Below are positions 3 through 15,193 of a stretch of DNA of 61,977 nucleotides, piece by piece. The translations under genes and the position numbers were made by a program. The notes under the pieces are model-generated. The model was not told the origin of the DNA. It worked only from the letters and a program-made list of their open reading frames with translations, and made no database searches. Positions within the stretch are counted from its first letter, which is position 1. Every line of letters begins with the position of its first letter. The stretch spans positions 735 to 62,711 of the forward strand of contig PFBD01000022.1 in assembly GCA_002773415.1 (NCBI GenBank). The letters are read 5' to 3'. Origin of the DNA: Candidatus Harrisonbacteria bacterium CG10_big_fil_rev_8_21_14_0_10_49_15. GTDB lineage: Bacteria; Patescibacteriota; Minisyncoccia; UBA6257; 1-14-0-10-44-23.

Positions 3-1055
3 GATGAAAAATATCCGGACGGTGAGATCCCTCAGCGCTATATGTTTGAGATGGCCAGCTTTGAAGGTCAGACGCACTTCTACATGCGCGTCCCGGTCAA
101 ACAGCGCAACATGATCGAAGCCGCGTTTCTTGGTTACTATCCGGACGTGGAACTTATTGAAATAGAGGACTACATGGATAAGCTCCCGCAAAACATCACC
201 GACCTGGAGCGCCGCGGCCTAGACATCTGGTGCACAGAGTTTTATTTAAACAAACACCCGGCCTTACCAATAAAGACTTACAAAGTTTTTGAAAGCCCGG
301 ACGAACAGCATCAGTTTGATCCCATGTCCAGTTTCCTGGAAGTAATGGGCAAAATAAAGCAAGGCGAGTATCTCGGTATGCAGATCTTGGTAGAGCCTCT
401 TCATCGAAATTACGCCCAGCGTTTTGATCCCGTTATTGAAGAGCTGCGTGAACCAAAATATGGTAAAGAGAAGATGGGCGCTGGTGAATTTACTTTCCAG
501 CCGATGATGATGAAGTCTCCGGGCGAGACCGAGACCCTGAAGCAGATAGAAGAAAATCTAGCCAAGCCTCTCTTCGTCCTTGTCGTCCGGGTTGCCTACA
601 TGGCCCCGAAGCCAACCTTCTACGATGGTCTGGCTAGGCGTGGTTTACGCGGTGCCTTTAACCAGTACTCCAGCGCTGACCTTAACTACTTCAAAGACAA
701 CGTGAAAAACGGCACCAAGCCCGGCTTCTGGGACTTTCCATATGTCTACCCGGAGCAGCGCCGACGGATTCGCAAGCAGCGAAATCTAAAGCTTTATCTC
801 GGCCGCGGGTTTGGCACTCACGACAACCTCCCCGAAATAATTCTGTACTCGCACTGGCTCGCGTTTAATTTAAATCTAGAAAAGTCCATAATCAGCAGCG
901 AAGGGCTGGCCTCGCTTTTTCATCCGCCAACTCAGATGGTGCTGACAGCGCCGCATACCGAGCGCTCCGAAAGCCGCAAGGTTGGTCCGTCCTCCGGTCT
1001 GCCTATCTATGGAGATGAATCCGCGCTTGAAAAATTCCTCCCCAAAGAGTCATGA
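3..1055 (+). CDS. Conserved hypothetical protein, 5' end cut by window edge
   Basis: Frame is open from base 3 (DEKYPDGEIPQRYMFEM...) to TGA at 1053-1055, so the Met at 42 in the ORF track is internal. No family recognised by eye. Confidence 0.6.
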   Translation, partial: DEKYPDGEIPQRYMFEMASFEGQTHFYMRVPVKQRNMIEAAFLGYYPDVELIEIEDYMDKLPQNITDLERRGLDIWCTEFYLNKHPALPIKTYKVFESPDEQHQFDPMSSFLEVMGKIKQGEYLGMQILVEPLHRNYAQRFDPVIEELREPKYGKEKMGAGEFTFQPMMMKSPGETETLKQIEENLAKPLFVLVVRVAYMAPKPTFYDGLARRGLRGAFNQYSSADLNYFKDNVKNGTKPGFWDFPYVYPEQRRRIRKQRNLKLYLGRGFGTHDNLPEIILYSHWLAFNLNLEKSIISSEGLASLFHPPTQMVLTAPHTERSESRKVGPSSGLPIYGDESALEKFLPKES

Positions 1056-1155: not shown

Positions 1156-1836
1156 ATGAAGATAAAAACCAAACCTAAAAATCCATCCGCCTGGAGCCAG
1201 CTCCTGTTCGTCGAGCGCAACATCGCCAGGGTCTTTATCGGGCTCCTTTTGCTGTACTTCTTTGGTCAGCTCTTCATCCACTTCGTCTACAGCTTCATGG
1301 GCGGCCAGGGATTTAACGCCGAATCACTTCGGGTATTTTTGGAAGCCGTGGACATTGTTTGGCGCAAGCACCTTGGCGGCTTTTTTACAGTCCTCAATGT
1401 TTTGCTTTTCATCTTCCTGTTGTACTGCTACAAGCAGGCATGGAAGTTTCGCATGCAACTTAAGCTTTACCCGCCGCCAAGCGACCTGGAAGCACAACCA
1501 AAACCCATCAAAAAAGATCCAAAAGTAATGCAGCACTGGCGCGACATAGTCCTGCGCGCTAACACCGGCCAACAAGAGAAGATGCGCAGCGCCATCATTG
1601 AAGCGGACGCCTTGGTTGACCACCACTTGAAAAATATTGGTCTTGAAGGAGAGCACATGGGTGACCGGCTTAAGCAGATACGCGCCTTCCAGGTCAAAAG
1701 CCTGGACAACCTTTGGAAAGCCCACCGTTTGCGAAACGACATTGCCCACACCCCCGGCTACAAAGTCACCGCCCGCCAAGCAGAGCGTGCCCTAGTGGCC
1801 TACCGCGACTTCTTAAAAGAAATGAAAGCATTTTAA
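1156..1836 (+). CDS. Membrane protein with C-terminal soluble helical domain, function unknown
   Basis: 226-aa ORF with hydrophobic segments VFIGLLLLYFFGQLFIHFV and FFTVLNVLLFIFLLYCY, then a helical domain (...AIIEADALVDHHLKNIGLEGEHMGDRLK...AHRLRNDIAHTPGY...). TATACT at 1147-1152 lies 3 nt before the ATG. Confidence 0.7.
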   Translation: MKIKTKPKNPSAWSQLLFVERNIARVFIGLLLLYFFGQLFIHFVYSFMGGQGFNAESLRVFLEAVDIVWRKHLGGFFTVLNVLLFIFLLYCYKQAWKFRMQLKLYPPPSDLEAQPKPIKKDPKVMQHWRDIVLRANTGQQEKMRSAIIEADALVDHHLKNIGLEGEHMGDRLKQIRAFQVKSLDNLWKAHRLRNDIAHTPGYKVTARQAERALVAYRDFLKEMKAF

Positions 1837-1954
1837 GGGAATACCGAAGTCGTTCTTCCCGTAGCCTACCTGCCGGTAGGCATGGCGCACACGGGAATCC
1901 ACGCTCAACAATCAATCATTGATACTTAATTTTAAGTCTGCTATCATCCAAAAT

Positions 1955-2584: not shown

Positions 2585-4366
2585 ATGCCTCAATCAGAAA
2601 CTCGCACCTGTCAAAACTGCCAGCGAGATTTCCAGGTCACTGGCTATGATAAGGAGTTCTGCAAAAGCCTAGAGGCTCCTTTGCCAACCTGGTGCCCAAA
2701 CTGTCGGCTTCAAAGGCGGCTTTCGTTCAGAAATGAACAAAATCTTTATAAGCGTACTTGCGATGCTCCAGGGCATAGCGAGCAGCTGATTTCTAATTAT
2801 TCTGATGATAAAAAAGTAGTTGTCTATGACCAGGAGTATTGGCGATCAGATAACTGGGACCCAATGGGCTACGGCCAAGACTACGACTTCAGCCGGCCAT
2901 TCTTTGAGCAGTTCAAGGAACTCCTGGCTGTAGTCCCATTTCAAAGCCTGGTGAACTTTAACAATGTTAATAGTGAGTATTGTAACTTTACGGCTGACAA
3001 CAAGAACTGCTATCTGGTCTTCGGAGGAGACTATAATGAAGACTGCTTATATTCAACCTTCAACTTCCAGTGCAAAAACTCCATGGATGAGTACTGGTCA
3101 GAAAAGTCAGCATCTTCTTATCAAAGCATCGATTCGACGGGTCTGTACAAGTCCTTCTACTGCCAGCTTTCAGGTGACTGCACAGACTGCTGGTTTTTGT
3201 ACGACTGCAAGAATCTAAACAACTGCCTTGGCTGTGTGGGCCTAAAAAACAAGAGCTTTTGCATTTTAAACAAGCAGTATTCTAAGGAAGAGTATGCCCA
3301 GAAAAAGCAGGAGCTAAAACTGCACACCCGCAGCGGCTTAGAAGCATTCCAGAAGCAGTTCAACGAACTGAAAATGAGAATGCCCCGTCGCTTTGCTACA
3401 ATTCTCAGATCAGAGAATTCCATCGGCGAAAACTTAATTGAAGTAAAAAACTGTCTAAACTGCTTTGATGTATCTGGTCCGGCCGAGAACATTAAGGACG
3501 CATATACTGTAGCTTTTAACGTAAAGGACTGCCTAAGCATCAATCACATGGGTCACGGCATTGAGCGAGTTTTTGATACCTTCGCCCTCTGGGGCCCATC
3601 CAATAATATCAAACACTCTTTCTTGGGCGGTGTCTCATTTGACGTCCAGTACTCGATGAACTTTACAAGCTGCAACAATATCTTTGGCTGCTTGGGGCTC
3701 AAAAACAAAAGCTACTGCATCTTGAACAAGCAGTATGGTAAGGAGGAGTATACGGAGTTAACTCAGAAGATAATTGAGCAGATGAAGGAGCTTCCATACA
3801 TTGATAAAAAAGGCAGAGAGTACAAATACGGAGAGTTTTTCCCGGCTGAAATTAGCCCACTGGACTATAACGAGACAATAGCCTACGAGCTATTCCCCAT
3901 GAGAAAGGAAGAGGCAGTCGAAAATGGCCTTGGCTGGAAGGAGAAAAGCATTAAAGACAACAAAGCTACACTAGAAAGCATCCCGGACGATATCCATGAT
4001 GTAGAAGACGGTATTTTAAAGGAGACTCTACCGTGCGCACACAAAGGCGAGTGTGCCGACAACTGTACGATAGCTTTTAGAGTAACCTCCGCAGAGCTAC
4101 AGTTTTATAAGAGCCTGAGCCTGCCCGTCCCAGATCTATGCTACAAATGCAGACACTATCAAAGATTAAAGTTGAGGAATCCAATGAATCTGTGGCACCG
4201 GCAATGTCAGTGCGCTGGAGAGTCCTCCGACAACCGGAAGTACAAAAATACAATCACTCATTCTCACGCACAAGACCACTGCCCCAATGAATTCGAAACC
4301 CCATACGCCCCCAACCGCCCGGAAATAGTGTATTGTGAACAATGCTATCAACAAGAAGTCGTCTAA
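2585..4366 (+). CDS. Cys-rich double zinc-ribbon protein, paralog 1 (unknown family)
   Basis: ATG at 2585 (MPQSETRTCQNCQ...). The track start at 2504 is a TTG that reads through a repeat element. Shares N-terminal CxxC...CxxC ribbon, internal Cys-rich periodic blocks and C-terminal ...IVYCEQCYQQEVV tail with four downstream ORFs. Confidence 0.85.
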   Translation: MPQSETRTCQNCQRDFQVTGYDKEFCKSLEAPLPTWCPNCRLQRRLSFRNEQNLYKRTCDAPGHSEQLISNYSDDKKVVVYDQEYWRSDNWDPMGYGQDYDFSRPFFEQFKELLAVVPFQSLVNFNNVNSEYCNFTADNKNCYLVFGGDYNEDCLYSTFNFQCKNSMDEYWSEKSASSYQSIDSTGLYKSFYCQLSGDCTDCWFLYDCKNLNNCLGCVGLKNKSFCILNKQYSKEEYAQKKQELKLHTRSGLEAFQKQFNELKMRMPRRFATILRSENSIGENLIEVKNCLNCFDVSGPAENIKDAYTVAFNVKDCLSINHMGHGIERVFDTFALWGPSNNIKHSFLGGVSFDVQYSMNFTSCNNIFGCLGLKNKSYCILNKQYGKEEYTELTQKIIEQMKELPYIDKKGREYKYGEFFPAEISPLDYNETIAYELFPMRKEEAVENGLGWKEKSIKDNKATLESIPDDIHDVEDGILKETLPCAHKGECADNCTIAFRVTSAELQFYKSLSLPVPDLCYKCRHYQRLKLRNPMNLWHRQCQCAGESSDNRKYKNTITHSHAQDHCPNEFETPYAPNRPEIVYCEQCYQQEVV

Positions 4367-4367
4367 C

Positions 4368-4401
4368 CTTACTCCAATGTTCTTGAGAACATTGGAATAA
4401 G
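4368..4401. repeat. 34-nt palindromic element in the paralog 1/2 spacer
   Basis: cttactccaatgttct tg agaacattggaataag: 16-nt arms with one mismatch. Related copies at 6227-6260 and in frame in mnmA at 21971-22004. Confidence 0.85.
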
Positions 4402-4413
4402 AAAAACCAAATC

Positions 4414-6225
4414 ATGGAAAAAGAAACAAAAACACATTCGCCAAGCTCAGTATCTGCGACTTGTCAGTCTTGCCAAAAAGAATTCACGCTCACCGCCGGT
4501 GACCTTGAGTTTTCCGAGCGTTTTAAGACACGTCCCGTAACCTGGTGCTTTGACTGCCGCCTCCAACGCCGCATGAGCTTTCGGAATGAAAACAAGCTTT
4601 ACAAGCGCAAATGCGACGCTCCGGGTCACACCGAGGAGATGCTCTCAATCTATGCTCCGGAAAAGCCCCTTAATATCTACGACCAAAAAGCCTGGTGGAG
4701 TGACTCCTGGGAGGGCCTGCAATTTGGTAAGAACTACGACTTTAACCGGCCGTTCTTCGAGCAGTTTCAAGAGCTGATCAAGGCCGTTCCCTGGATGTCT
4801 TTGTTTAACATGAACTCCACCAATAGCGACTACTGCAACATGACCACCGACAACAAAGACTGTTACTTGGTCTTTGGTGGCGACTACAACGAGAACTGCA
4901 TGTACTCCACCTTCAACTTCTACAGCCGAGACTGTCTGGATAACTACATGACCAATGAGAATGAACTTTCCTATGAGGTTAAAAACAGTCGGTCTCAATA
5001 CAAGTGCATGTTCATTAACTGGGCCAAAGACTGCACCGAAAGTGCCTTTTTAGACGACTGCACCGGGCTATCCAACTGCATCGGCTGCGTTAATATGAAA
5101 AATGCTCAGTACTGCATATTCAACGAACAGTACTCCAAAGAAGAGTACGAACAAAAGAAAGCCGAGCTGGACTTTTCCGATGCCAACAAGTTGGCGGAGT
5201 TTAAGCAAAAATTTAACGAATTTAAGAAAAAATTTCCTAAAAAATACGCTGACATCATTAGAACTGAAGACGCAGTCGGTAATCGAATAAACGACGCCAA
5301 AAACATTCAAAACTGTTTTGATATTTTCGGACCGGCTGAAAATCTTCGCGATGTTTTCCTGACATTCAACACTTATAAAGATTCTTATTCCTGCTCCCAC
5401 GGAGGCCACGGCGTAGAGGAGTGCTATGAATCAACAGCGATCTTTGGCAACTGCCAAAGGCTTTTCGGCTGCATCCTGATGAGCTCAACGCACGACGCGG
5501 CTTATTCCTACAACTGCCGCGGTTCAAGCAACCTGTTCGGCTGTGTCGGCTTGCGCGATAAACAGTACTGCATCCTAAACAAGCAGTACACAAAAGAGGA
5601 GTACGAAGAACTTGTGCCGAAAATAAAGGCGCACATGGACCAGATGCCATACACCGACGCTGGCGGCCGAGTGCATCAATACGGCGACTTTTTCCCAAGC
5701 CAGATTTCACCCTTCGCCTATAACGAAACCGTTGCCCAAGAATATTTTCCCCTAACCAAAGAAGATGCGATCATAAAAGGCTTTACCTGGCGGGACCAAG
5801 ATGTAAAGAGCTATCAAATAACCATCCCGTCCGGCCAACTCCCGCCTAAGCTATCCGAGATAACAGACGAAATTACCAAAGAAGTTATAGAGTGCGCCCA
5901 CAAAGGTGAGTGCCAAGACGGCTGCTCCACGGCCTTTCGCATCTTACCTCAGGAGCTAACCTTTTATCGGAGGCTGAACGTTGCTCTCCCTACGCTCTGT
6001 CCAAGCTGCCGCCACGCCAGTCGTCTCGCCAGTCTCGCCCCGCTCAAGCTTTTTGCCGGCAAGTGTAAGTGCGGCGGAGCCAGCTCTGAAAATAGCCTAT
6101 ACAAAAACACAGCCAGCCACTTCCACGGCGCTGGTCCCTGTCCCAATGAGTTTAAGACCCCCTACGACCCAGCCTCAGACACTATCACCTACTGTGAACA
6201 GTGTTACCAAGCCGAAGTAGCTTAA
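4414..6225 (+). CDS. Cys-rich double zinc-ribbon protein, paralog 2
   Basis: 603-aa ORF with the same architecture as paralog 1. Shares the KRxCDAPGHxE segment after the first ribbon. Tail is ...ITYCEQCYQAEVA. Confidence 0.85.
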   Translation: MEKETKTHSPSSVSATCQSCQKEFTLTAGDLEFSERFKTRPVTWCFDCRLQRRMSFRNENKLYKRKCDAPGHTEEMLSIYAPEKPLNIYDQKAWWSDSWEGLQFGKNYDFNRPFFEQFQELIKAVPWMSLFNMNSTNSDYCNMTTDNKDCYLVFGGDYNENCMYSTFNFYSRDCLDNYMTNENELSYEVKNSRSQYKCMFINWAKDCTESAFLDDCTGLSNCIGCVNMKNAQYCIFNEQYSKEEYEQKKAELDFSDANKLAEFKQKFNEFKKKFPKKYADIIRTEDAVGNRINDAKNIQNCFDIFGPAENLRDVFLTFNTYKDSYSCSHGGHGVEECYESTAIFGNCQRLFGCILMSSTHDAAYSYNCRGSSNLFGCVGLRDKQYCILNKQYTKEEYEELVPKIKAHMDQMPYTDAGGRVHQYGDFFPSQISPFAYNETVAQEYFPLTKEDAIIKGFTWRDQDVKSYQITIPSGQLPPKLSEITDEITKEVIECAHKGECQDGCSTAFRILPQELTFYRRLNVALPTLCPSCRHASRLASLAPLKLFAGKCKCGGASSENSLYKNTASHFHGAGPCPNEFKTPYDPASDTITYCEQCYQAEVA

Positions 6226-6226
6226 C

Positions 6227-6260
6227 CTTACTCCAATGTTCTCAAGAACATTAGAATAAG
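6227..6260. repeat. 34-nt palindromic element in the paralog 2/3 spacer
   Basis: cttactccaatgttct ca agaacattagaataag. The whole 47-nt spacer 6226-6272 matches spacer 4367-4413 at 44 of 47 positions by hand alignment. Confidence 0.85.
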
Positions 6261-6272
6261 AAAAACCAAATC

Positions 6273-8027
6273 ATGGAAAAAGAAACACGCAACTGTCAGA
6301 ACTGCAAAACCGATTTCGTCATTGAGCCGGAAGACTTTGCGTTTTACCAAAAAATAGACGTTCCACCGCCCACTTGGTGCCCGCAGTGCCGTATGGTCCG
6401 CCGATTTATTTTCCGCAATGAGCATAACCTGTACCGTCGGCCAGACAGCCACACTGGCGAGGATATCTTTTCCACAGTTCCAAAAGAGTCAGACGCAAAA
6501 GTATATGAGCGCAGTTTTTGGTGGTCAGACGGCTGGAATCCGCTAGACTATGGCCGCGACATTGATTGGAATAGGCCATTCCTGGAGCAGCTTAAAGAGT
6601 TGATGTATGAAGTACCATGGCCAAGCCGTAGTGCCTTGAATCTAGTAAACTCAGATTATTGCGCCAATCTTAATGGCGGCAAGAATAGTTATTTGTGTTT
6701 TCACGGTTTTGATATAGAAAACAGCGCATATGTGATCGGCTTTTCTAGTGTCAAAGAAGGATTTGATCTATATCAATCCCGGCACGCAGAGCTTTGCTAC
6801 GACAACTATATGGCAGACGAGGTCCAGCGCGTTTTTTTCTCTACCAACGTTGAAGAGAGTCATGATATTTGGTTCTCCAAGAACATTATCGGTTGCAATA
6901 ATATTTTTGGCTCAATTAACTTACGGAATAAAAGCTACTATATTTTCAACAAGCCGGTTTCTAAGGAGCAGCACAAACAGTTCATGACTGAATTTAACTC
7001 CGGTTTATTTAAGTCCGTAGAGGAGATGCGCCAAAAAGCAGAAGAACTTTGGCTCCAACACCCAAATCGGTTTACCCTGGCCATCAATGTGATAGATTCT
7101 ACGGGAGAGCACATTGAGCACTGCAAAAATGTGAAAGATAGCTATTTCATTCATAATGGTGAAGATATGAAGCATTGCCAGATGATCGAGGACGCGAAAG
7201 ATTGCTATGATCTTTCAATTGTCGGTCGCAAATCTGAGCTAATGTATGACTCTATGGTTGCCGGTGTTGAGGCACAGAACATAAAATTCTCTTTTAACTG
7301 TGTGGAAAGCATCAGTAATCTTGAATACTGTGTGATGTGCTTTGGTACAGCGAATGCTTTCGGCTGCGTGGGTTTGAAAAAAGGCGAATACGCTATTCTC
7401 AACAAAAAGTACTCCAAGGAGGAGTATAAAGAGCTTGTCATAAAGCTAAAACAGCACATGAATGATCTGCCATACACAGACGGCCAAGGGAGAGTCTATA
7501 AATATGGCGAATTTCTTCCCGCCGAGTTTAGCCCTTTGGCGTATAATGAAAGTTTAGCTCAAACATTTTTCCCGCTCACTAAAGAAGAAGCTGTAGCGCA
7601 AGGATACCAGTGGCGCGACGAGGAGAGGAGACAGATAGAGCCGACTATCCAAGCAGGGGATCTGCCGGATAATATTGCTGACGTGCAAGACGACGTCTTA
7701 AAGCAAATCATCGGTTGCCAAACCTGCGGTGCCGCCTTTCGCATCATCCCCATGGAGCTGGATTTTTACCGCAACATCAAGCTGCCCATCCCACGCCGCT
7801 GCCCGGACTGCCGCTTCGCCCGCCGCTTCCGTTTTGTAAACCCGCCTGTATTCCGGCTATCCAAATGCCACTGTTCCGGTGCTAAGGATGCAAGTGGTCA
7901 ATACGCCAACCAGGTGGCGCATTCACACGGTGACCAGCCCTGCCCCAACGAATTTGAAACCAGCTTCCGCGAAGAAGCTAAAGAAATAATCTACTGCGAG
8001 CAGTGCTACAAATCCGAAACCATCTGA
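6273..8027 (+). CDS. Cys-rich double zinc-ribbon protein, paralog 3
   Basis: 584-aa ORF. Starts MEKET like paralog 2. HTGEDIFSTVP subtype after the first ribbon. Tail is ...IIYCEQCYKSETI. Confidence 0.85.
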   Translation: MEKETRNCQNCKTDFVIEPEDFAFYQKIDVPPPTWCPQCRMVRRFIFRNEHNLYRRPDSHTGEDIFSTVPKESDAKVYERSFWWSDGWNPLDYGRDIDWNRPFLEQLKELMYEVPWPSRSALNLVNSDYCANLNGGKNSYLCFHGFDIENSAYVIGFSSVKEGFDLYQSRHAELCYDNYMADEVQRVFFSTNVEESHDIWFSKNIIGCNNIFGSINLRNKSYYIFNKPVSKEQHKQFMTEFNSGLFKSVEEMRQKAEELWLQHPNRFTLAINVIDSTGEHIEHCKNVKDSYFIHNGEDMKHCQMIEDAKDCYDLSIVGRKSELMYDSMVAGVEAQNIKFSFNCVESISNLEYCVMCFGTANAFGCVGLKKGEYAILNKKYSKEEYKELVIKLKQHMNDLPYTDGQGRVYKYGEFLPAEFSPLAYNESLAQTFFPLTKEEAVAQGYQWRDEERRQIEPTIQAGDLPDNIADVQDDVLKQIIGCQTCGAAFRIIPMELDFYRNIKLPIPRRCPDCRFARRFRFVNPPVFRLSKCHCSGAKDASGQYANQVAHSHGDQPCPNEFETSFREEAKEIIYCEQCYKSETI

Positions 8028-8059
8028 TTTTGTACCAATCCTAATTCACGCAACTCTGC

Positions 8060-8085
8060 CGGCTTATTCGCACGAATTAGCCCAA
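8060..8085. repeat. 26-nt direct repeat, left copy, flanking the ArsR gene
   Basis: cggcttattcgcacgaattagcccaa, identical to 8393-8418. Contains the ATTCG-ca-CGAAT inverted motif. Confidence 0.9.
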
Positions 8086-8123
8086 TGGGTATATACTGAA
8101 AGAAAGAGAAAATTTAAAAAGCT

Positions 8124-8390
8124 ATGCGTAAGCTCGAAAAACTCCTCAAGGCATTCGCTAACGCGCGGCGCCTGGCGATTCTCAAGTTCCTGTCCAAAGA
8201 AAAAGAAGCACATGTCAGCGCCATCTCTCGGGAGATAGGGCTATCCTTCAAGTCAACCTCTCGACACCTGGCAGTCCTATACGCGGTTGACCTGCTAGCA
8301 AAAGAGCAGCGCGACGTGGAAGTTTTTTATCGCTTGAAGGAAGAAGCCAAGCCATCGATTAAAACGATCTTAAACATACCCACAAGCTAA
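8124..8390 (+). CDS. ArsR/SmtB-family HTH transcriptional regulator
   Basis: 88 aa. ARRLAILKFLSKEKEAHVSAISREIGLSFKSTSRHLAVLYAVDLLAKEQRDVEVFYRL is a typical ArsR winged-helix pattern. Confidence 0.8.
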   Translation: MRKLEKLLKAFANARRLAILKFLSKEKEAHVSAISREIGLSFKSTSRHLAVLYAVDLLAKEQRDVEVFYRLKEEAKPSIKTILNIPTS

Positions 8391-8392
8391 CT

Positions 8393-8418
8393 CGGCTTAT
8401 TCGCACGAATTAGCCCAA
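8393..8418. repeat. 26-nt direct repeat, right copy, 8 nt upstream of paralog 4
   Basis: Perfect copy of 8060-8085. Confidence 0.9.
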
Positions 8419-8426
8419 CCCCTAGT

Positions 8427-10208
8427 ATGGCAGAGGAAGAGAAAAAATTTTGTCAAAATTGTCAGCAGGAGTTCACGATCGAGCCGGAGGATTTTGAGTT
8501 CTACCGGCGTATTGATGTCCCGCCGCCCATGTTTTGCTGGCAATGTCGCATGCAGCGCCGATTGGCTATTCGTAACGAGCGCTCGCTATATAAGAGAGCA
8601 TGTGGGCTCTGTAAGAAAGATACAATTAGCGTCTATTCACCAGGCAAAGATCTTAATGTCTACTGCCAAGACTGCTACAAATCAGACGCCTGGGATCCGT
8701 TTAGCTATGGTCGAGACTATGACCTTAGTAAGTCTCTTTTTGAGCAGATCGATAGATTATTTCGAGAAGTTCCTAGGCCAGCACTTAACCTAACTAACGC
8801 AGTCAACTGTACCTACTCAGAAGATTGCGTTAACTCGAAAAACTGTTATTTAGTCTTTGGTGCTTATCATGCGGACAACATAATGTATAGCTACACCCCG
8901 ATTTTTTCGCGCAATTCTGTAGATGTCACTTTTACTAATCAAGTAGAGATGAGCTACGAAGTAAGCAATTCCTTTGGCCTGTACAATGTAAGGTTTGCCC
9001 ATGTTGCCGACGAATGCATGGATTCTGCCTTTTTGTATGACTGCAAGGGTAGTAAAAATTGCTTTGGTTGTGTCAATCTGCGCAACAAAAACTACTATAT
9101 CTTTAATAAGCCCTATTCCAAAAATGATTATCAGGAAGAGATTAAAAAATGGGACATCGGTAGCTACACAACTCTTCAGCGGGCAAAACAAGAATTTCAA
9201 TATCTGCTCGACAAAACACCGCGACGTTGGGCCATAACCGCAAATTCAGTAGACGTCAGCGGTAACAATATCAATCATGCTAAAAATTGCCATTATTGCT
9301 TTTCAGTTACCGAGGGTTGCGAAAACCTAAAGTTTACTGTTATGTCTGGTTTGGCCATGAAGGATAGCTATGATGTCTGGGGCGGCGGAGATAAAAGCCA
9401 ATTGCTATACGAAGTTACTGGCTGTATAGGAGGGGAGCGAGTCATGTTTACCAACAATACGCACGGTTGTGTCAATGTGCAGTATTCTAATAAGTGTTTT
9501 CACTCTCAAAATCTCTTTGGCTGTGCCGGTATTAAAAAGAAAAACTACTGTATCCTAAACAAGCCGTATTCAAAAAGCGAGTACCATGCTTTGCTTCCCA
9601 GAATAATTGAGTCTGCTAAAAATAATCCCTTTATTGATAGGGCCGGACGAGAATACCGCTATGGCGAGTTCTTTCCTATGGAGCATATGCCTGTCGCGTA
9701 CAATGAATCAAATGCCTACGAACGTTTCCCGCTTACAAAACAGGAGGCAGAAGAGAAGGGGTTTTCTTGGCACTCCGAGCCAGAACGCAATTACACGATA
9801 ACTATGCAGACAGGCAGCCTTCCCGATCATATTAAAGACGCGCCAGACAGCATAACCAATGAGGTAATAGCCTGTGAGCATGCCGGCTCTTGTCAAGAAC
9901 ACTGCACTACTGCCTTTAAAATTACTCCTTCCGAACTAGACTTTTATCGACAAATTAATATTGCTTTACCCAGACTCTGCCCAAACTGTCGCCATGGCCA
10001 AAGAGACAAGAGAAGAAATGGGATGTTTGAGCTTCATGATCGCACCTGTCAGTGTGCTGGAGAAAGGTCAGAAAACGGGCTTTACCAAAACGAAATGAAA
10101 CATTTTCACGGTACAGAACACTGCCCGAATAGTTTTAAATCTGCTTTTGCGCCTGAAAGGAAGGAAATCATGTATTGCGAAAAATGTTATCAAGCTGAGC
10201 TTATTTAA
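8427..10208 (+). CDS. Cys-rich double zinc-ribbon protein, paralog 4
   Basis: 593-aa ORF. It is unique in having an extra CGLCKK...VYCQDCY knuckle after the first ribbon. Tail is ...IMYCEKCYQAELI. Confidence 0.85.
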   Translation: MAEEEKKFCQNCQQEFTIEPEDFEFYRRIDVPPPMFCWQCRMQRRLAIRNERSLYKRACGLCKKDTISVYSPGKDLNVYCQDCYKSDAWDPFSYGRDYDLSKSLFEQIDRLFREVPRPALNLTNAVNCTYSEDCVNSKNCYLVFGAYHADNIMYSYTPIFSRNSVDVTFTNQVEMSYEVSNSFGLYNVRFAHVADECMDSAFLYDCKGSKNCFGCVNLRNKNYYIFNKPYSKNDYQEEIKKWDIGSYTTLQRAKQEFQYLLDKTPRRWAITANSVDVSGNNINHAKNCHYCFSVTEGCENLKFTVMSGLAMKDSYDVWGGGDKSQLLYEVTGCIGGERVMFTNNTHGCVNVQYSNKCFHSQNLFGCAGIKKKNYCILNKPYSKSEYHALLPRIIESAKNNPFIDRAGREYRYGEFFPMEHMPVAYNESNAYERFPLTKQEAEEKGFSWHSEPERNYTITMQTGSLPDHIKDAPDSITNEVIACEHAGSCQEHCTTAFKITPSELDFYRQINIALPRLCPNCRHGQRDKRRNGMFELHDRTCQCAGERSENGLYQNEMKHFHGTEHCPNSFKSAFAPERKEIMYCEKCYQAELI

Positions 10209-10317
10209 TCATGAGCAATCTCAAACTTCGCCTAATGCATCTGACTGGTATCATCCGCTTTGGCTGGGGGATGGTTAAGATGAAAACGCGTATTTTTATC
10301 AGAAAAAGATTTAAAAT

Positions 10318-12084
10318 ATGAGCACAGAGACCCGTCAGTGCCAAAACTGCAAGCAGAATTTCTCCATTGAACCGGAGGATTTTGAGTTTTACGAAATGAT
10401 GCAGGTACCGCCGCCGACATTTTGTCCACAGTGTCGTTTTCAGCGCCGATTCTCCTTCTATAATCAGTTTCAGTTATTTAGGAAGGAAGACGCGCATACT
10501 GGAAATGAGATCTTCTCCACATTTCCGGCGCAGGCACCAATTAAAATCTACGAAAACGAGTATTGGTATTCCGACAGCTGGGACCCGATGAGTTACGGGC
10601 GTGATTATGATTTCTCTCGGCCGTTCTTTGAGCAGTACCGAAATCTGATGCGCGAAGTGCCATGGTTGTCTCGCTCCATTCAGCGTTTAGTGAATAGCGA
10701 CTACTGCAACCAGGCCTCAGACCTCAAAAACAGCTACCTTTGTTTTAATGGTGACAGCGGGGAAGAATGCCAGTACTGCATTTCCTTCAATCGCCTGAAG
10801 AACTGTATGGATCTATATCAGGCTAGCGATAATGAGCTTTGTTATGGAGGATTTAGTATCGCCGAAAGCTATCGCGATTTTTTTGGCTGCGCAAATGTCG
10901 GCTGCCAAAATACCTGGTTTTCCAGGAACTGCATTGACTGCGCCGACTGCTTCGGCTGCATAAACTTACGCCACAAAAAGTACCACATCTTCAATCAGCC
11001 ATACACAAAATATGAGTATCAGAAGAAGATAAAAGAGTTTGCTCTGCATACGGATACGGGTCTGCAATCAGCTAAGCAGGCCGCGCATGAATTCTGGCTC
11101 CGTAATCCGCTTCGCTATATGTCCGGCGCGCTGAACGAACAGGTGACGGGCGAATATATCTGGGAGTCAAAAAATGTAAAAAATTCATATCAAATAGTTA
11201 AAGGAGAGAACGTGCGCTACTCTGTTAACGCCGTTGAAGGAGTGAAAGACTCTTGGGACTACTCAAACTGGGGTGGCGGATCTGAGTTAATGTACGAAGC
11301 CGCGGTTTGCGGAGAAAAGTGCAGTGGGCTTAAGTTCTGCCTTGATTGTTGGCCGAACATGACGGACTCTGAATACTGCGTCAACTGCCATTCCTCCTCT
11401 AATCTGTTCGCCTGCGTTGGCTTGCGCTCTAAGCAGTACTGTATCTTCAACAAGCAGTATTCAAAGGAAGAGTACGAAGAATTAGTGCCAAAGATAAAGG
11501 CGCACATGAACGAAACGCCTTATACCGATGTCGGCGGCCGAGTATATAAGTACGGAGAATTTTTCCCGGCCGAATTCAGCCCCCTTGCCTATAATGAATC
11601 CGCTTCGCAAAGCTATCTGCCTCTTTCTAGGGAACAGGCAGAGGCCCAATCGCTACTTTGGCGGGATACTCCCAAAAAGGAGTTTCAGGTAACAATGCAG
11701 GCTACGGACCTTCCGGATGCGATCGCCGATGTGCAAGATTCAATTCTCAAAGAAGCGATTGCCTGTGGCGAATGCAAGCGCGCCTACCGCATCATTCCCA
11801 AGGAGCTAGAGTTTTATCGCCGCTTTGAACTACCGCTGCCACGTCGGTGCGCTGACTGTCGGCGAAATGAGCGCCTTCAATTCCGTAATCCAGTAAAGCA
11901 GTACGAGCGCCAGTGTCAGTGCGCTGGGGAAAAATCTAGCAACGGCGCTTACCAGAATCAAAACAAAGATCACCGGGTACATAACCCAGGCGAGCCGTGC
12001 CCGAATGAATTTCAAACTTCCTACGCCCCCGATCGAGAAGAAATAGTATATTGTGAATCATGCTATCAGCAGGAAGTCATATGA
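10318..12084 (+). CDS. Cys-rich double zinc-ribbon protein, paralog 5
   Basis: 588-aa ORF. HTGNEIFSTFP subtype like paralog 3. Tail is ...IVYCESCYQQEVI. Confidence 0.85.
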   Translation: MSTETRQCQNCKQNFSIEPEDFEFYEMMQVPPPTFCPQCRFQRRFSFYNQFQLFRKEDAHTGNEIFSTFPAQAPIKIYENEYWYSDSWDPMSYGRDYDFSRPFFEQYRNLMREVPWLSRSIQRLVNSDYCNQASDLKNSYLCFNGDSGEECQYCISFNRLKNCMDLYQASDNELCYGGFSIAESYRDFFGCANVGCQNTWFSRNCIDCADCFGCINLRHKKYHIFNQPYTKYEYQKKIKEFALHTDTGLQSAKQAAHEFWLRNPLRYMSGALNEQVTGEYIWESKNVKNSYQIVKGENVRYSVNAVEGVKDSWDYSNWGGGSELMYEAAVCGEKCSGLKFCLDCWPNMTDSEYCVNCHSSSNLFACVGLRSKQYCIFNKQYSKEEYEELVPKIKAHMNETPYTDVGGRVYKYGEFFPAEFSPLAYNESASQSYLPLSREQAEAQSLLWRDTPKKEFQVTMQATDLPDAIADVQDSILKEAIACGECKRAYRIIPKELEFYRRFELPLPRRCADCRRNERLQFRNPVKQYERQCQCAGEKSSNGAYQNQNKDHRVHNPGEPCPNEFQTSYAPDREEIVYCESCYQQEVI

Positions 12085-12243: not shown

Positions 12244-13686
12244 ATGGCACAAGGAAAGATTCAGATAATTAAATACGCACCGCCGCCGCCGGAGTTGCCC
12301 GTCATGGGTAAGGGCAGTCCGGAGGAGATCTGCTTCATCGGCCGGACCAACTACGTGGCCGCGCTTGAGGAAAAGAAGTTTGTTTTTGGTATCAAAAGGG
12401 ACGACCGCCGCCGCCACGTCTACATTGTTGGTAAGTCCGGTGTCGGTAAATCAAAGCTCTTGGAGTTGCTGCTACGCCAAGACGTGGCTTATGGCAAGGG
12501 GCTCTGCTTGATGGATCCGCACGGCGACGTTATTGAAGACCTGCTCGTGGCCATTCCCAAGGAGCGCATTAAAGACGTCTGTATCATTGATCCGGCAGAC
12601 AGCGAGTACCCGGCTTCGTTTAACCCGCTGGCCAACGTGAACGTAGACTTTAAGCACCAGCTGACCCAAGGCCTGATCGAGGTCATGGAAAAGCAGTTCG
12701 GTGCCAACTGGACGCCGCGTCTGGAGCACGTTTTCCGCTTCACCACCCTGGCTCTTTTAGACTACCCGCACGCGACCATGCGCGGCATGATCAGCATGCT
12801 CACAGACCGTAACTACCGCCAAAAAGTGATTGAGTACATAGAAGACGACATGGTCAAGCGCTTCTGGGCAATTGAATTCGCAGACTGGTCTGAAAAGTTT
12901 GATACCGACGCCATCATCCCGCTCGTTAACAAGCTCGGCCAGTTTTTATCCGATCCAATGCTGCGCAACATCTTCGGTCAAAAAGAGAACAAGATAGACC
13001 TGGAGAGGTTGATGAACGAAAAGAAAATAGTTCTAATAAACTTGTCTAAGGGCCGCCTTGGCGAAGAAAACTCCAGCTTCTTTGGTGCTATGTTCTTGAC
13101 CAAGATTAAACAGGCCGGTATGCAACGCGCCCGCATGCCTGAAAAAGACCGCACCGACTTCTACCTGTACGTGGACGAGTTTCAAAACGTGGTTACGGAG
13201 ACCTTTGAAAACCTCATGTCCGAGGCGCGTAAATACGGCATCGCCATCACCATCGCCCACCAGTACATGGGTCAGCTCTTGCCCAAGGTCCTCTCTGCCG
13301 TGCTTGGTAACACCGGTACCATGATCAGCTTCCGTGTTGGTGGCGCGGACGCCGAGGTCCTGGAGTACGAGTTTGCCCCAATTTTTAAAGTGAAAGACTT
13401 CATCAACCTGGGTAAGCAAGAGTTTTACATCAAATTGATGATCGACGGCGAGTCTTACGACCCGTTCTCCGCCGCGACTCTATTCGTTAAAAAGCCGGTC
13501 CACCAGTCCTATCGAGAAGAAATCATCGCCTCAAGTCGCGAGCAGTTTGCCATCACCGCCGGCGCCGCCAAAAAGTTGATAGAAGAAGAAGAATCTACTA
13601 TTATCCGAAGTGCCAGCGAAAAGGCCATCATCACCGGCCAAAAGGTAGATACTAGTATTGAAGAACACCCCGAGCCATTGATCTAG
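12244..13686 (+). CDS. TraD/VirD4-like P-loop ATPase (T4SS coupling-protein-like, soluble)
   Basis: 480 aa. Walker A is VGKSGVGKS and Walker B-like is FYLYVDEFQN. ARKYGIAITIAHQYMGQL resembles the TraG/TraD C-terminal region. No N-terminal TM segments visible. Confidence 0.75.
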   Translation: MAQGKIQIIKYAPPPPELPVMGKGSPEEICFIGRTNYVAALEEKKFVFGIKRDDRRRHVYIVGKSGVGKSKLLELLLRQDVAYGKGLCLMDPHGDVIEDLLVAIPKERIKDVCIIDPADSEYPASFNPLANVNVDFKHQLTQGLIEVMEKQFGANWTPRLEHVFRFTTLALLDYPHATMRGMISMLTDRNYRQKVIEYIEDDMVKRFWAIEFADWSEKFDTDAIIPLVNKLGQFLSDPMLRNIFGQKENKIDLERLMNEKKIVLINLSKGRLGEENSSFFGAMFLTKIKQAGMQRARMPEKDRTDFYLYVDEFQNVVTETFENLMSEARKYGIAITIAHQYMGQLLPKVLSAVLGNTGTMISFRVGGADAEVLEYEFAPIFKVKDFINLGKQEFYIKLMIDGESYDPFSAATLFVKKPVHQSYREEIIASSREQFAITAGAAKKLIEEEESTIIRSASEKAIITGQKVDTSIEEHPEPLI

Positions 13687-14887: not shown

Positions 14888-15193
14888 ATGATTCTCATTT
14901 ACACAACTCACAAAAATACCGAGGCGGCCGTCAACATAGGCGACCTCCTCATCAAAGATAAGCTCGCGGCCTGCGTTAACATCTGGCCGATTCAGTCTAT
15001 CTATCGCGACGGTGATGAAATAAAAAGCCACCTAGAAGCGGCCATGCTCATCAAAACCTTTGAGCAAAAACTGCAGCAGATAGAGGAGGTAATAGAGAAA
15101 AATCATCCCGACAAAACGCCCTTTATCGGCGCCGTGGATGTCCGCCGCTTTAACCGAAGCTACCGCGAGTGGATGATGGAGGTGGTGAAGTAG
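14888..15193 (+). CDS. cutA: Divalent-cation tolerance protein CutA
   Basis: 101 aa. LAACVNIWPIQSIYRDGDEI...ML.IKT is the CutA1 pattern. Confidence 0.8.
   Translation: MILIYTTHKNTEAAVNIGDLLIKDKLAACVNIWPIQSIYRDGDEIKSHLEAAMLIKTFEQKLQQIEEVIEKNHPDKTPFIGAVDVRRFNRSYREWMMEVVK

What the first reader, a model, noticed from the sequence alone, without database searches (positions are those of the whole stretch)
2585..12084. Five tandem, divergent paralogs of a ~590-aa cysteine-rich double-zinc-ribbon protein that I cannot assign to any family
Five same-strand ORFs (2585-4366, 4414-6225, 6273-8027, 8427-10208, 10318-12084) share one architecture. (i) An N-terminal CxxC-x24-26-CxxC ribbon embedded in CqnCq..F.I...D.eFY....vPpPtwCpqCR.qRR..FRNE..LY. 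(ii) W.sD.WdP..YG.dYDF.RPFFEQ. (iii) Two blocks of roughly 12-residue periodic Cys/Asn/Asp-rich repeats (solenoid-like), each closed by C.GL.NK.YCI.NKqYsKEEY plus a helical linker. (iv) Y.YGEFFPaE.SPlAYNE. (v) A second ribbon, AFRI.P.EL.FYR...LPlPr.CP.CR, that mirrors the N-terminal one. (vi) A tail, C.CaG...Y.N...H....CPNEFeT.YAPdR.EIVYCEqCYqqEV. Copy 1 has about 33 Cys by hand count. No signal peptide or TM segment is visible, so the proteins are probably cytoplasmic. Three subtypes are visible just after the first ribbon: copies 1-2 have CDAPGH.E, copies 3 and 5 have HTG.eIFST.P, and copy 4 has an extra CGLCKK...VYCQDCY knuckle. TA modules sit on both sides of the array, an ArsR regulator sits inside it, and a TraD-like ATPase sits next to it. 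That is an accessory or conflict-type context, not a housekeeping one. This is my best candidate for an undescribed system in the window.
Basis: partly seen in the sequence, partly recalled or inferred. Interest (0 to 1): 0.85.

Follow-up and report, generated by a model that had tools for sequence, protein, structure and literature searches.

The report
Unnamed zinc-finger solenoid family beside VirD4-like ATPases
Five neighbouring genes encode old, diverged copies of a large unnamed protein family found only in Patescibacteria (zinc fingers at both ends, a doubled beta-solenoid in the middle), and this family sits next to a very conserved VirD4-like ATPase whose role in these bacteria is unknown, which gives a concrete lead to that role.

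Summary
Five + strand genes (593/603/584/593/588 aa, 38-50% identical) share one architecture: a basic zf_Tbcl finger, an optional CxxC-x17-CxxC finger, a linker, two homologous beta-solenoid blocks, an acidic conserved lobe, a second zf_Tbcl finger and a CxxC-x17-CxxC-derived tail.

The 420-residue core matches nothing in Pfam, NCBIfam, PADLOC, PDB or BFVD. AlphaFold models are confident (pLDDT 86 and 89). The nearest folds are hexapeptide left-handed beta-helices, and those matches are not significant.

The family is very large (4824 clusters at 50% identity), confined to Patescibacteria, annotated only as "hypothetical", and absent from phages and plasmids. Arrays of 1-9 copies are normal. 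They hold ancient paralogs under purifying selection, not recent duplicates.

The conserved neighbour is not the TA or ArsR genes, which vary between relatives. It is a soluble VirD4-like ATPase, 76-90% identical across candidate phyla. All five ATPase-centred loci sampled carry the family downstream. A second ATPase type carries the same finger.

My best reading (confidence about 0.4) is that these proteins are clients or adaptors of those ATPases. The biochemical function remains unknown.

The parts
2585..4366 (+). Family copy 1 (593 aa, 33 Cys). After finger 1 it has CDAPGH, a degenerate second finger.
   Evidence: ORF; alignment; family HMM 887 bits; AlphaFold model pLDDT 86, pTM 0.86; the only copy with a clear ortholog in a close relative (73%).
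4414..6225 (+). Family copy 2 (603 aa, 33 Cys), same subtype as copy 1.
   Evidence: zf_Tbcl at aa 15-54, E 0.0018.
6273..8027 (+). Family copy 3 (584 aa, only 24 Cys), HTG subtype. Its second finger has a plain CxxC.
   Evidence: zf_Tbcl at aa 480-518, 23.6 bits against a cut-off of 24.
8427..10208 (+). Family copy 4 (593 aa). It has the complete N-terminal didomain: zf_Tbcl plus an exact CxxC-x17-CxxC.
   Evidence: zf_Tbcl_2 at aa 52-86, E 2.4e-4; TIGR04272 E 0.0012; hhalign to the ATPase finger 97.2%; AlphaFold model pLDDT 89.4, pTM 0.87.
10318..12084 (+). Family copy 5 (588 aa), HTG subtype, 50% identical to copy 3.
12244..13686 (+). Ta: a soluble VirD4/TraD-like ATPase (480 aa, Walker A at about aa 63, no TM segment). 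It lies directly downstream of the array.
   Evidence: Pfam DUF87, T4SS-DNA_transf, TrwB_AAD_bind and TraG-D_C, all above cut-offs; homologues 76-90% identical across candidate phyla; followed by family genes in all 5 ATPase-centred loci sampled.
16900..18759 (+). Tb: a second VirD4-like ATPase (619 aa). At aa 466-500 it carries a canonical CxxC-x17-CxxC finger, followed by a basic low-complexity tail.
   Evidence: zf_Tbcl_2 E 6e-13, TrwB_AAD_bind E 5e-12; TIGR04272 51 bits, above the cut-off of 36; the same finger occurs in 9 Tb homologues.
42..1055 (+). T1: the C-terminal 337 aa of a membrane-anchored partner of about 450 aa (weak DUF8128). The window start cuts it.
   Evidence: BLAST to full-length homologues; N-terminal TM in the L082 homologue; DUF8128 in precomputed Pfam hits; fused to the ATPase in L010, L080, L063 and L066.
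1156..1836 (+). c17: a small membrane protein of the conserved backbone (sigma-r4/HARE-HTH, then T1, c17, Ta).
   Evidence: Hydropathy 2.27; recurrent cluster.
8124..8390 (+). ArsR-type winged-helix regulator (88 aa, no Cys) inside the array. It is a variable passenger and a possible local regulator.
   Evidence: HTH_5 E 1.4e-7; adjacent to family genes in 4 of the 5 loci where it occurs; absent from the close relative.
8060..8085 (.). 26-nt imperfect palindrome upstream of the ArsR gene. It is identical to 8393-8418.
8393..8418 (.). Second copy of the 26-nt element, upstream of copy 4. A candidate operator.
4368..4401 (+). 16+16 nt palindrome (hairpin) in the 47-nt spacer after copy 1.
   Evidence: RNA fold -16.7 kcal/mol, z -5.8, no U tail.
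6227..6260 (+). The same palindrome in the spacer after copy 2. Spacer plus the first 5 codons are 87% identical between the two junctions.
14888..15193 (+). CutA1, a recurrent member of the ATPase/array neighbourhood.
   Evidence: Pfam E 3e-25; cluster c18 in 6 loci; also in L090 and L091.

Best explanation
What it is (shown). The five genes belong to one very large, unnamed, Patescibacteria-restricted protein family. Each protein is made without an export signal. The layout is:
- a basic treble-clef zinc finger (zf_Tbcl), with or without a CxxC-x17-CxxC finger;
- a conserved acidic linker;
- two homologous narrow beta-solenoid blocks, each closed by the NK.YCI.NKQYSKEEY cap and a helix;
- a highly conserved acidic lobe (YGEFFP.E.SP.AYNE);
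- a second zf_Tbcl finger and a CxxC-x17-CxxC-derived tail.
In short, the two ends mirror each other around a duplicated core.

How it most likely works (inferred). The proteins are clients or adaptors of the conserved soluble VirD4-like hexameric ATPases Ta and Tb, which are encoded with them. The constant finger didomains at both ends would be the common handle. They are basic, and Tb carries the same finger next to a basic disordered tail, so they probably bind nucleic acid or dock on the ATPase module. The solenoid faces differ between paralogs but are conserved within an ortholog pair, so they would be the paralog-specific recognition surface. An array would then supply a repertoire of distinct, co-expressed specificities to one ATPase machine. 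That machine may be membrane-tethered through the DUF8128 protein T1 and the small membrane protein c17.

It is open whether the ATPase moves these proteins, or whether they deliver something to it.
For: Architecture and internal duplication. Two independent confident models, with strands every ~6 residues in the solenoids.

Family size and restriction: 7983 of 8000 candidates hit; 4824 clusters at 50% identity; more than 591 genomic stretches, nearly all Patescibacteria.

Coupling to the ATPases:
- ATPase-cluster genes lie within +-10 kb in 34 of 83 family-centred loci and directly adjacent in 25.
- All 33 adjacent pairs are co-directional, mostly with gaps under 110 nt, and fall in 27 clusters at 60% identity.
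- The literature gives about 2 VirD4-like genes per CPR genome.
- Of 5 loci chosen only by Ta homology, all 5 have 1-6 family genes downstream on the same strand, although the upstream genes differ.
- The close relative keeps the same backbone.

Shared module: the Tb finger is homologous to the family's N-terminal second finger (hhalign 97.2%, E 5e-11).

Constant ends, variable middle: entropy 1.2-1.8 bits at the fingers and caps against 2.4-2.9 in the solenoid bodies. sol1 is nevertheless the best conserved segment (85%) in the one ortholog pair.

The fingers carry net charge +4 and +6; the rest is acidic.

Some arrays have 4-nt gene overlaps, which suggests co-translation.
Against: - No physical or expression evidence exists. 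Everything rests on gene neighbourhood and one shared 35-residue finger.
- 49 of 83 family-centred loci show no ATPase within 10 kb. Arrays also sit next to RecA/FtsK, LepA and MurC.
- The region downstream of Ta also collects TA modules, an IS element and a recombinase. It could simply be a permissive insertion site.
- The five ATPase-centred loci all come from Ta proteins at least 76% identical to the window's, so they are not phylogenetically independent.
- Nucleic-acid binding by zf_Tbcl or CxxC-x17-CxxC fingers is my inference from charge and context. No paper or solved structure was found.
Confidence: 0.4

Rival explanations
1. Exported cargo. The proteins are substrates that the VirD4-like ATPase, tethered to the membrane by DUF8128/c17, unfolds and pushes out of the cell as surface or host-directed effectors of these episymbionts. 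The conserved terminal modules act as the secretion handle. The cysteine ladder of the narrow solenoid forms disulfides outside the cell.
For: - Ta and Tb are homologous to type IV coupling proteins, which are substrate receptors.
- T1 has an N-terminal TM segment and is fused to the ATPase in several genomes.
- SecDF lies in the same backbone.
- There is no signal peptide, as expected for non-Sec substrates.
- Array content turns over between relatives: only one ortholog pair was found.
- 12-residue Cys-in-register solenoids are otherwise known from secreted disulfide-rich proteins such as insect antifreeze proteins (my knowledge; one weak precomputed PF02420 hit in L001).
Against: - No channel components (VirB4, VirB6, VirB8) occur in the window. 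Only 148 of 5713 CPR coupling-protein homologues lie near virB4.
- Three to five structural zinc sites and basic fingers are typical of intracellular proteins.
- No toxin or enzyme domain and no paired small immunity genes were seen.
- The paralogs are ancient and under purifying selection.
- The solenoid cysteines are individually dispensable: copy 3 has 24, and Cys occurrences are uncorrelated.
Confidence: 0.2
2. Independent cytoplasmic family; the ATPase linkage is only positional. The proteins are paralogous zinc-finger/solenoid scaffolds with a role unrelated to Ta or Tb, for example nucleoid or RNA organisation, regulation, or self-assembling structural elements. They accumulate downstream of Ta because that site tolerates insertions.
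For: - Many arrays sit in housekeeping contexts with no ATPase nearby.
- The same site collects TA modules, an IS element and a recombinase.
- The mirrored ends around a duplicated solenoid would suit end-to-end assembly (inference).
Against: - All 5 Ta-centred loci carry the family despite different upstream genes.
- All 33 adjacent pairs are co-directional with short gaps.
- Tb shares a homologous finger.
- Family genes lie between Tb and Ta inside the dnaK...dnaJ interval in about 10 loci.
Confidence: 0.22
3. Anti-phage or other conflict system. A HerA/FtsK-type ATPase works with an array of diversified sensor proteins.
For: - Ta and Tb give weak hits to the PADLOC models mad8 and HerA (E 1e-11 to 1e-12).
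- TA modules and an IS element lie nearby.
- Array composition varies between relatives.
Against: - The family itself has no PADLOC hit.
- It is absent from phages, plasmids and IMG/VR, apart from one contig-end fragment.
- Ta is 76-90% identical across candidate phyla. That fits a core gene, not a patchy defence gene.
- The family appears near-ubiquitous rather than sporadic.
- No effector domain was found.
Confidence: 0.08
4. Zinc or other metal buffering or storage by cysteine-rich proteins, regulated by ArsR and linked to CutA.
For: - About 34 Cys per protein.
- An ArsR-family gene lies inside the array and CutA1 nearby.
Against: - Solenoid Cys columns are occupied independently. No pair except 287/290 reaches phi 0.4, and mixed patterns such as 0111, 1011 and 0001 are common. 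A true finger quartet, by contrast, is all-or-none: 1111 in 96, 1000 in 55, 0000 in 44.
- Copy 3 lacks a quarter of the cysteines.
- The ArsR protein has no Cys and lacks the metal-site motif (sequence). It is absent in the relative.
- Long invariant non-Cys motifs argue for a specific binding role.
Confidence: 0.05

Closest known systems
zf_Tbcl (PF13451) and zf_Tbcl_2 (PF23477) / TIGR04272 'CxxC-x17-CxxC domain-containing protein'
   Same: The terminal fingers of the family are of these two types. The CxxC spacing is the same. Pfam and NCBIfam hits recur but fall at or just below threshold. hhalign gives 97% to the canonical finger of the Tb ATPase.
   Different: Those families are 35-50-residue modules of unknown function. 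They mostly occur as tiny standalone proteins of 47-72 aa in archaea and bacteria. Here up to four fingers frame a 420-residue core with no known relative, and the tail finger carries an insertion of about 22 residues with conserved His and Cys.
Type IV coupling proteins (VirD4/TraD/TrwB) and their substrates, e.g. Xanthomonas T4SS effectors with a conserved VirD4-interacting C-terminal domain (the latter from my own knowledge)
   Same: A VirD4-like ATPase is encoded beside a set of variable proteins that share conserved terminal modules.
   Different: - The ATPases lack the N-terminal TM domain and score far below every NCBIfam coupling-protein cut-off (52 against 250 bits).
- No VirB4, channel or relaxase genes are nearby.
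- The family has no toxin domain and no immunity partner.
- The conserved modules are zinc fingers, present at both ends.
Hexapeptide-repeat left-handed beta-helix proteins (LpxA, LpxD, GlmU, gamma-carbonic anhydrase)
   Same: The top 50 Foldseek PDB neighbours of the better model are all of this class. Strands recur every ~6 residues.
   Different: - No match is significant: best E 1.3e-3, probability at most 0.28, TM about 0.1, rmsd 12-19 A.
- There is no Pfam Hexapep hit.
- The sequence period is 12, not 18.
- There are no acyltransferase or metal-site residues.
12-residue cysteine-ladder beta-helix antifreeze proteins (Tenebrio type, PF02420)
   Same: 12-residue repeats with Cys in register, preceded by Asn or Asp. 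One homologue has a weak precomputed PF02420 hit.
   Different: The antifreeze proteins are secreted, disulfide-bonded, about 84 aa long, and carry TxT ice-binding ladders. Here there is no signal peptide, the Cys are individually dispensable, there are no hits in my own scans, and no Foldseek match.

Membership tests
zf_Tbcl (PF13451) | Two CxxC knuckles about 24-26 residues apart; whole-protein score at or above the Pfam gathering score (24 bits). | tested here: inconclusive
   The pattern is present twice in every copy. The best score is 23.6 bits (copy 3) and 18.6 bits (copy 2). 16 of 52 family members hit at E < 0.1. The two fingers are homologous to each other (98.9%).
zf_Tbcl_2 (PF23477) / TIGR04272 | CxxC-x17-CxxC with the (F/Y).P...RP.YC..C signature; score at or above 27 bits (Pfam) or 36 bits (NCBIfam). 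| tested here: inconclusive
   Copy 4 has the exact spacing at aa 59-83 but scores 21.2 and 18.6 bits. hhalign to the canonical Tb finger gives 97.2%. Copies 1, 2, 3 and 5 have lost this N-terminal finger. The tails of all copies match only the second half because of an insertion. The Tb ATPase itself passes both cut-offs.
Type IV coupling protein (VirD4/TraD/TrwB), for the neighbouring ATPases Ta and Tb | FtsK/HerA-type nucleotide-binding domain with a Walker A motif, plus the all-alpha domain. | tested here: met
   Walker A at aa ~63 (Ta) and ~47 (Tb). TrwB_AAD_bind scores 29.5 and 45.8 bits against a cut-off of 20.5; T4SS-DNA_transf and TraG-D_C are also above cut-offs.
Type IV coupling protein (VirD4/TraD/TrwB), for Ta and Tb | N-terminal transmembrane domain. 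| tested here: not met
   Maximum hydropathy is 1.15 and 1.26, with polar N-termini. A separate TM protein (T1) is fused to the ATPase in some genomes.
Type IV coupling protein (VirD4/TraD/TrwB), for Ta and Tb | Encoded with VirB4, channel or relaxase genes; passes an NCBIfam coupling-protein model. | tested here: not met
   No such genes occur in the 62-kb window. The best NCBIfam score is 52 bits against a cut-off of 250. The literature reports that most CPR homologues are orphans.
Known anti-phage defence families (PADLOC-DB 2.0) | A hit of the family protein to any defence-system model. | tested here: not met
   Copies 1, 3 and 4 give 0 hits at E <= 0.01. Only the ATPases hit mad8 and HerA, weakly.
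Hexapeptide-repeat left-handed beta-helix | Pfam Hexapep repeats, an 18-residue coil, and a significant structural match. | tested here: not met
   No Hexapep hit. The sequence period is 12. Foldseek best E is 1.3e-3 with TM about 0.1.
Metallothionein-like or metal-storage protein | Cysteines conserved as sets of metal ligands throughout the Cys-rich region. | tested here: not met
   Solenoid Cys columns vary independently, while finger quartets are all-or-none. Copy 3 has 24 Cys against 33 in the others.
Any family with a solved structure | A sequence-profile or fold match to a PDB chain. | tested here: not met
   - Full-length profile: 0 hits at E <= 10.
- C-terminal didomain: best hit RPB9, E 0.075.
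- Solenoid block: best E 0.32.
- Foldseek on two models: nothing at E <= 1e-3.
- BFVD: only small zinc-ribbon matches, best E 0.03.

The most novel reading that the evidence does not exclude
The arrays are the missing clients of the orphan VirD4-like ATPases that nearly all Paceibacteria-type Patescibacteria carry. Together with the DUF8128 membrane protein they would form a previously unrecognised ATPase-driven system. It would handle or deliver a repertoire of zinc-finger/beta-solenoid proteins, possibly as nucleoprotein complexes, possibly to the host cell, and it would be a lineage-defining feature of these episymbionts.
Probability: 0.18. Interest if true: 0.9.

Novelty: categorically new. 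Interest (0 to 1): 0.72.

Why it matters
Patescibacteria make up a large share of bacterial diversity, and most of their lineage-specific genes have no assigned function.

This family is among the larger of those unknowns. It has at least 4824 clusters at 50% identity and often several copies per locus. Its 420-residue core has no relative in Pfam, NCBIfam, PADLOC, PDB or BFVD.

A recent survey counted 5713 VirD4-like coupling-protein homologues in 2918 CPR genomes. Only 148 lay near a type IV secretion system, and the survey left their role open (10.1101/2025.01.22.634366).

This work shows three things:
- One such ATPase is 76-90% identical across candidate phyla.
- It is regularly followed by arrays of this family.
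- A sister ATPase shares one of the family's fingers.

That turns "what do the orphan coupling proteins do?" into a testable question with named candidate partners. It also adds a distinctive architecture (mirrored zinc-finger didomains around a duplicated 12-residue-period solenoid) as a target for structural work.

Tried and rejected
1. dN/dS. For the only clear ortholog pair (copy 1 against L084 rC, 73% aa identity) synonymous sites are saturated (pS 0.92, dN 0.18). No ratio can be computed, and only purifying selection can be stated. Among the window copies third-position identity is 0.32-0.39, which is also saturated.

2. Gene conversion. No homogenisation was found. There is one candidate tract, copy 2 at 5530-5696 against copy 5 at 11401-11567 (80% nt identity), and the two conserved junction spacers.

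3. Recent tandem duplication: rejected. 96% of array members have a closer relative in another genome, only 4 of 117 adjacent pairs share a 50% cluster, and no within-locus pair exceeds 70%.

4. Metal sponge: rejected by the Cys co-occurrence analysis.

5. Mobile-element or phage origin. There were no tblastn hits in 50,697 phage or 72,556 plasmid records, and only one contig-end fragment in IMG/VR.

6. Known defence systems: none for the family.

7. Structure and sequence searches of PDB and BFVD: nothing significant. The RPB9 hit (E 0.075) probably reflects the Cys pattern only.

8. Searching with the Tb finger to learn its other contexts gave only 6 tiny standalone CxxC-x17-CxxC proteins, because the word index found just 12 candidates.

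9. Seven literature searches found no description of the family, of DUF8128, or of the finger families.

10. A chaperone link was considered. In about 10 loci the order is DnaK, x, Tb, family, Ta, DnaJ. I treat this as lineage-specific synteny, because those loci share extended gene order.

11. No tRNA or Rfam element occurs in the window.

12. Model coordinates are not exposed, so the handedness and coil geometry of the solenoid could not be measured.

Full report
**1. Observation**

They encode proteins of 593, 603, 584, 593 and 588 aa. The copies are 38-48% identical to copy 1, and copies 3 and 5 are 50% identical. They carry 33, 33, 24, 33 and 33 cysteines. None has a hydrophobic segment: the maximum 19-residue hydropathy is 0.55-1.28, against 2.27 for the neighbouring membrane protein. 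All have polar N-termini whose first cysteine lies at residue 8-17.

**2. Anatomy**

Profile-profile comparison of slices of a 52-sequence family alignment shows two internal duplications.
- The N-terminal finger and the second finger are homologous (98.9%, E 2e-17).
- The two repeat blocks are homologous (99.9%, E 3e-35).

The fingers are of Pfam's treble-clef type zf_Tbcl. Scores are 23.6 and 18.6 bits against a gathering score of 24, and 16 of 52 members hit.

Copy 4 has an exact CxxC-x17-CxxC directly after finger 1. It scores 21.2 bits for zf_Tbcl_2 and E 0.0012 for TIGR04272. This finger is homologous to the C-terminal tail of every copy, where about 22 residues with conserved His and Cys are inserted (96.7%, E 4e-10). 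Its four cysteines are all present in 96 of 199 family members and otherwise lost as a unit.

The likely ancestral layout is therefore [zf_Tbcl + CxxC-x17-CxxC], linker, solenoid, solenoid, acidic lobe, [zf_Tbcl + CxxC-x17-CxxC].

Block 1 has a clean 12-residue period. Autocorrelation at lag 12 is 0.48 for Cys, 0.44 for Asn/Asp and 0.36 for hydrophobic residues, and Cys occupies every third position. Block 2 is less regular.

The solenoid cysteines are occupied independently of one another, and copy 3 lacks many of them. I read them as core-packing residues of a narrow solenoid, not as metal ligands.

The zf_Tbcl fingers carry net charge +4 and +6. The rest of the protein is acidic.

**3. Structure**

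Two AlphaFold2 models are confident.
- Copy 1 with 52 sequences: pLDDT 86.0, pTM 0.86.
- Copy 4 with 123 sequences: pLDDT 89.4, pTM 0.87.

In the better model the solenoid strands recur about every six residues. Confidence dips at residues 190-220.

Foldseek against the PDB gives nothing at E <= 1e-3. The 50 best neighbours of the better model are all hexapeptide-repeat left-handed beta-helices, but with probability at most 0.28, TM about 0.1 and rmsd 12-19 A. BFVD returns only small zinc-ribbon proteins. Sequence profiles of the whole protein, the C-terminal didomain and a solenoid block find no solved relative.

The core therefore belongs to the beta-solenoid class but has no specific known relative. 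I had no access to model coordinates, so handedness and coil geometry are not established.

**4. Family and distribution**

- A profile of the five copies hits 7983 of the 8000 scored candidates. The best 120 are all full-length proteins of about 590 aa. They are named only "hypothetical protein" and come from Wolfe-, Uhr-, Lipton-, Sung- and Staskawiczbacteria, Paceibacterota and Parcubacteria.
- An exhaustive search of cluster representatives finds 4824 clusters at 50% identity, 2116 of them below E 1e-30.
Of these, 591 were confirmed, and nearly all of the 80 loci kept are Patescibacteria. Two short contigs labelled otherwise are probably mis-binned.
- The family is absent from 50,697 phage records and 72,556 plasmid records, and from IMG/VR apart from one contig-end fragment.
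- No PADLOC model matches it.
- Seven literature searches found no description of it.

**5. Arrays**

Within +-10 kb of a family gene, the 83 loci hold the following numbers of full-length copies:

| Copies | 0 | 1 | 2 | 3 | 4 | 5 | 6 | 7 | 9 |
|---|---|---|---|---|---|---|---|---|---|
| Loci | 1 | 33 | 18 | 14 | 6 | 6 | 2 | 1 | 2 |

Some arrays have 4-nt gene overlaps.

The arrays are not recent duplications.
- 96% of members have a closer relative in another genome (median identity 0.57 against 0.45 within their own locus).
- Only 4 of 117 adjacent pairs fall in the same 50% cluster.
- No within-locus pair exceeds 70%.

In the window, third-codon-position identity between copies is 0.32-0.39.

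A relative whose Ta ATPase is 81% identical keeps the same backbone but has a different array: 3+1 copies, of which only one is orthologous to a window copy (73%) and the rest are at most 43% identical. It also has different TA modules (MazE-Fic), an IS element and no ArsR gene.

For that ortholog pair, synonymous sites are saturated (pS 0.92) while dN is 0.18, so selection is purifying. Solenoid block 1 is the best conserved segment, at 85%. Across the whole family the solenoid bodies are the most variable part, at 2.4-2.9 bits against 1.2-1.8 bits for fingers and caps. This is the pattern expected of old, specialised paralogs whose repertoire is reshuffled. It is not the pattern of an ongoing local arms race.

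**6. The conserved partner**

I clustered all neighbouring genes of the 83 loci. One family stands out: TraD/TrwB/DUF87-type ATPases. They occur in three forms.
- **Ta** is about 485-510 aa. In the window it lies at 12244-13686.
- **Tb** is about 620-800 aa and carries a canonical CxxC-x17-CxxC finger and a basic low-complexity tail. In the window it lies at 16900-18759, with zf_Tbcl_2 E 6e-13 and TIGR04272 above its cut-off.
- **T1** is a membrane-anchored, Walker-less partner of about 450 aa with a weak DUF8128 match. The window start cuts it (42-1055). In several genomes it is fused to the ATPase.

Cluster members lie within 10 kb in 34 of 83 loci and directly adjacent in 25. All 33 adjacent pairs are co-directional, mostly with gaps under 110 nt, and the adjacent family proteins fall into 27 clusters at 60% identity. 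For comparison, a published survey found about two VirD4-like genes per CPR genome, nearly all far from any type IV secretion genes, and left their function open.

Taking the ATPase as the starting point gives a stronger result.
- The 120 best Ta homologues are 76-90% identical across Harrison-, Nomura-, Jorgensen-, Lipton- and Pacebacteria. This is far more conserved than the PepA (55%) or T1 (39%) genes between the window and its close relative.
- All five long contigs chosen only for carrying a Ta homologue have 1-6 family genes downstream on the same strand. Their upstream genes differ: SecDF, sigma-r4/HARE-HTH, DUF8128 and c17 in two, Nramp, PGM and an ABC transporter in the others.

The Tb finger is homologous to the family's own second finger (97.2%, E 5e-11).

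Two longer syntenies recur.
- (sigma-r4/HARE-HTH), T1, c17, Ta, then the array.
- In about ten related loci: DnaK, x, Tb, family, Ta, DnaJ.

CutA1 is another frequent neighbour.

Against this, many arrays sit without any ATPase, next to RecA/FtsK, LepA or MurC. The five ATPase-centred loci are also not phylogenetically independent.

**7. Interpretation**

*Shown:* this is a very large, undescribed, lineage-restricted family. It has a mirrored zinc-finger and double-solenoid architecture. It is kept as sets of ancient paralogs and is genetically linked to a core VirD4-like ATPase.

*Inferred (confidence about 0.4):* the proteins are clients or adaptors of Ta and Tb. The constant basic finger didomains act as a shared handle that binds nucleic acid or docks on the ATPase. 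The solenoid faces act as paralog-specific recognition surfaces.

Rival readings:
- Exported cargo of the ATPase (0.2).
- A cytoplasmic family whose linkage to the ATPase is only positional (0.22).
- A defence system (0.08).
- Metal storage (0.05, contradicted).

**8.

This is only partly right. The ArsR-type gene and the TA modules are real, but they change between close relatives. The rest of the window is housekeeping: MnmA, ComEC, AsnRS/AspRS-type synthetase, LepA, MurB, SecA, GlmS and the F-ATPase, with no type IV secretion genes. The ATPase is the conserved element, and it behaves as a core gene.

**9. Verdict**

Its biochemical function remains unknown. The link to the orphan VirD4-like ATPases is the most useful new result, because it can be tested directly.

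Noticed in passing
window 4364-4416 and 6223-6275: The 47-nt spacers after copies 1 and 2, plus the first five codons of copies 2 and 3 (MEKET), are 87% identical, although the genes are only about 50-55% identical at nucleotide level. Each spacer holds a 16+16 nt palindrome that folds as a stable hairpin (-16.7 and -10.1 kcal/mol, z about -5.7) with no U tail. This could be a processing or stability element, a protein-binding site, or a trace of junction conversion.
   Followed up: partly
window 8060-8085 and 8393-8418: A perfect 26-nt direct repeat, CGGCTTATTCGCACGAATTAGCCCAA, which is itself an imperfect palindrome. One copy lies upstream of the ArsR-type gene and the other upstream of family copy 4. 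It is a candidate operator for the 88-aa, cysteine-free winged-helix protein.
   Followed up: partly
window 1156-1836: A small two-TM protein of the conserved backbone. Its C-terminal helical domain ends in RNDIAH (an Rx4H motif), and it has a weak Pfam hit to Hypoth_Ymh (E 0.06). From memory, that family belongs to the HEPN group, so this may be a membrane-anchored HEPN-like protein.
   Followed up: partly
window 12244-13686; proteins P0278-P0396: The Ta ATPase is 76-90% identical across many candidate phyla of Paceibacteria-type Patescibacteria. That is unusually high for these fast-evolving genomes and far above neighbouring housekeeping genes. It points to an essential, tightly constrained role for an ATPase currently annotated as a conjugation protein.
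   Followed up: partly
window 42-1055; L082:6639-7988; L010, L080, L063, L066: The DUF8128-like protein (N-terminal TM, about 450 aa, no Walker motif) is encoded upstream of Ta. In several genomes it is fused to the ATPase as a 747-790 aa protein, which suggests it is the ATPase's membrane anchor. It diverges fast: 39% between relatives whose Ta is 81% identical.
   Followed up: partly
loci L016, L042, L054, L059, L068, L070 and others: In about ten related genomes the order is PaaX_M-like, DnaK, x, Tb, family gene(s), Ta, DnaJ, x, arginase, CysRS, AI-2E. The ATPases and the family therefore sit between dnaK and dnaJ.
   Followed up: partly
window 1919-2450, 13887-14117, 14426-14713; L084:11822-12451 and 4923-6221: The TA-type genes flanking the array differ between close relatives. 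The window has a ParE-like toxin plus a small upstream ORF, a HicB-like protein and RelB. The relative has MazE-Fic and also carries an IS (HTH_28 + rve_3) transposase next to its array. The site appears to tolerate insertions.
   Followed up: partly
window 5530-5696 vs 11401-11567: A 167-nt stretch of copies 2 and 5 is 80% identical at nucleotide level, against a gene-wide 52%. It encodes the identical EELVPKIKAHM segment and may be an old gene-conversion tract.
   Followed up: no
window 14888-15193; L029, L035, L048, L055, L081, L090, L091: CutA1 (divalent-cation tolerance protein) recurs next to Ta or the arrays in at least eight loci including the window. Its link to them is unexplained.
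   Followed up: no
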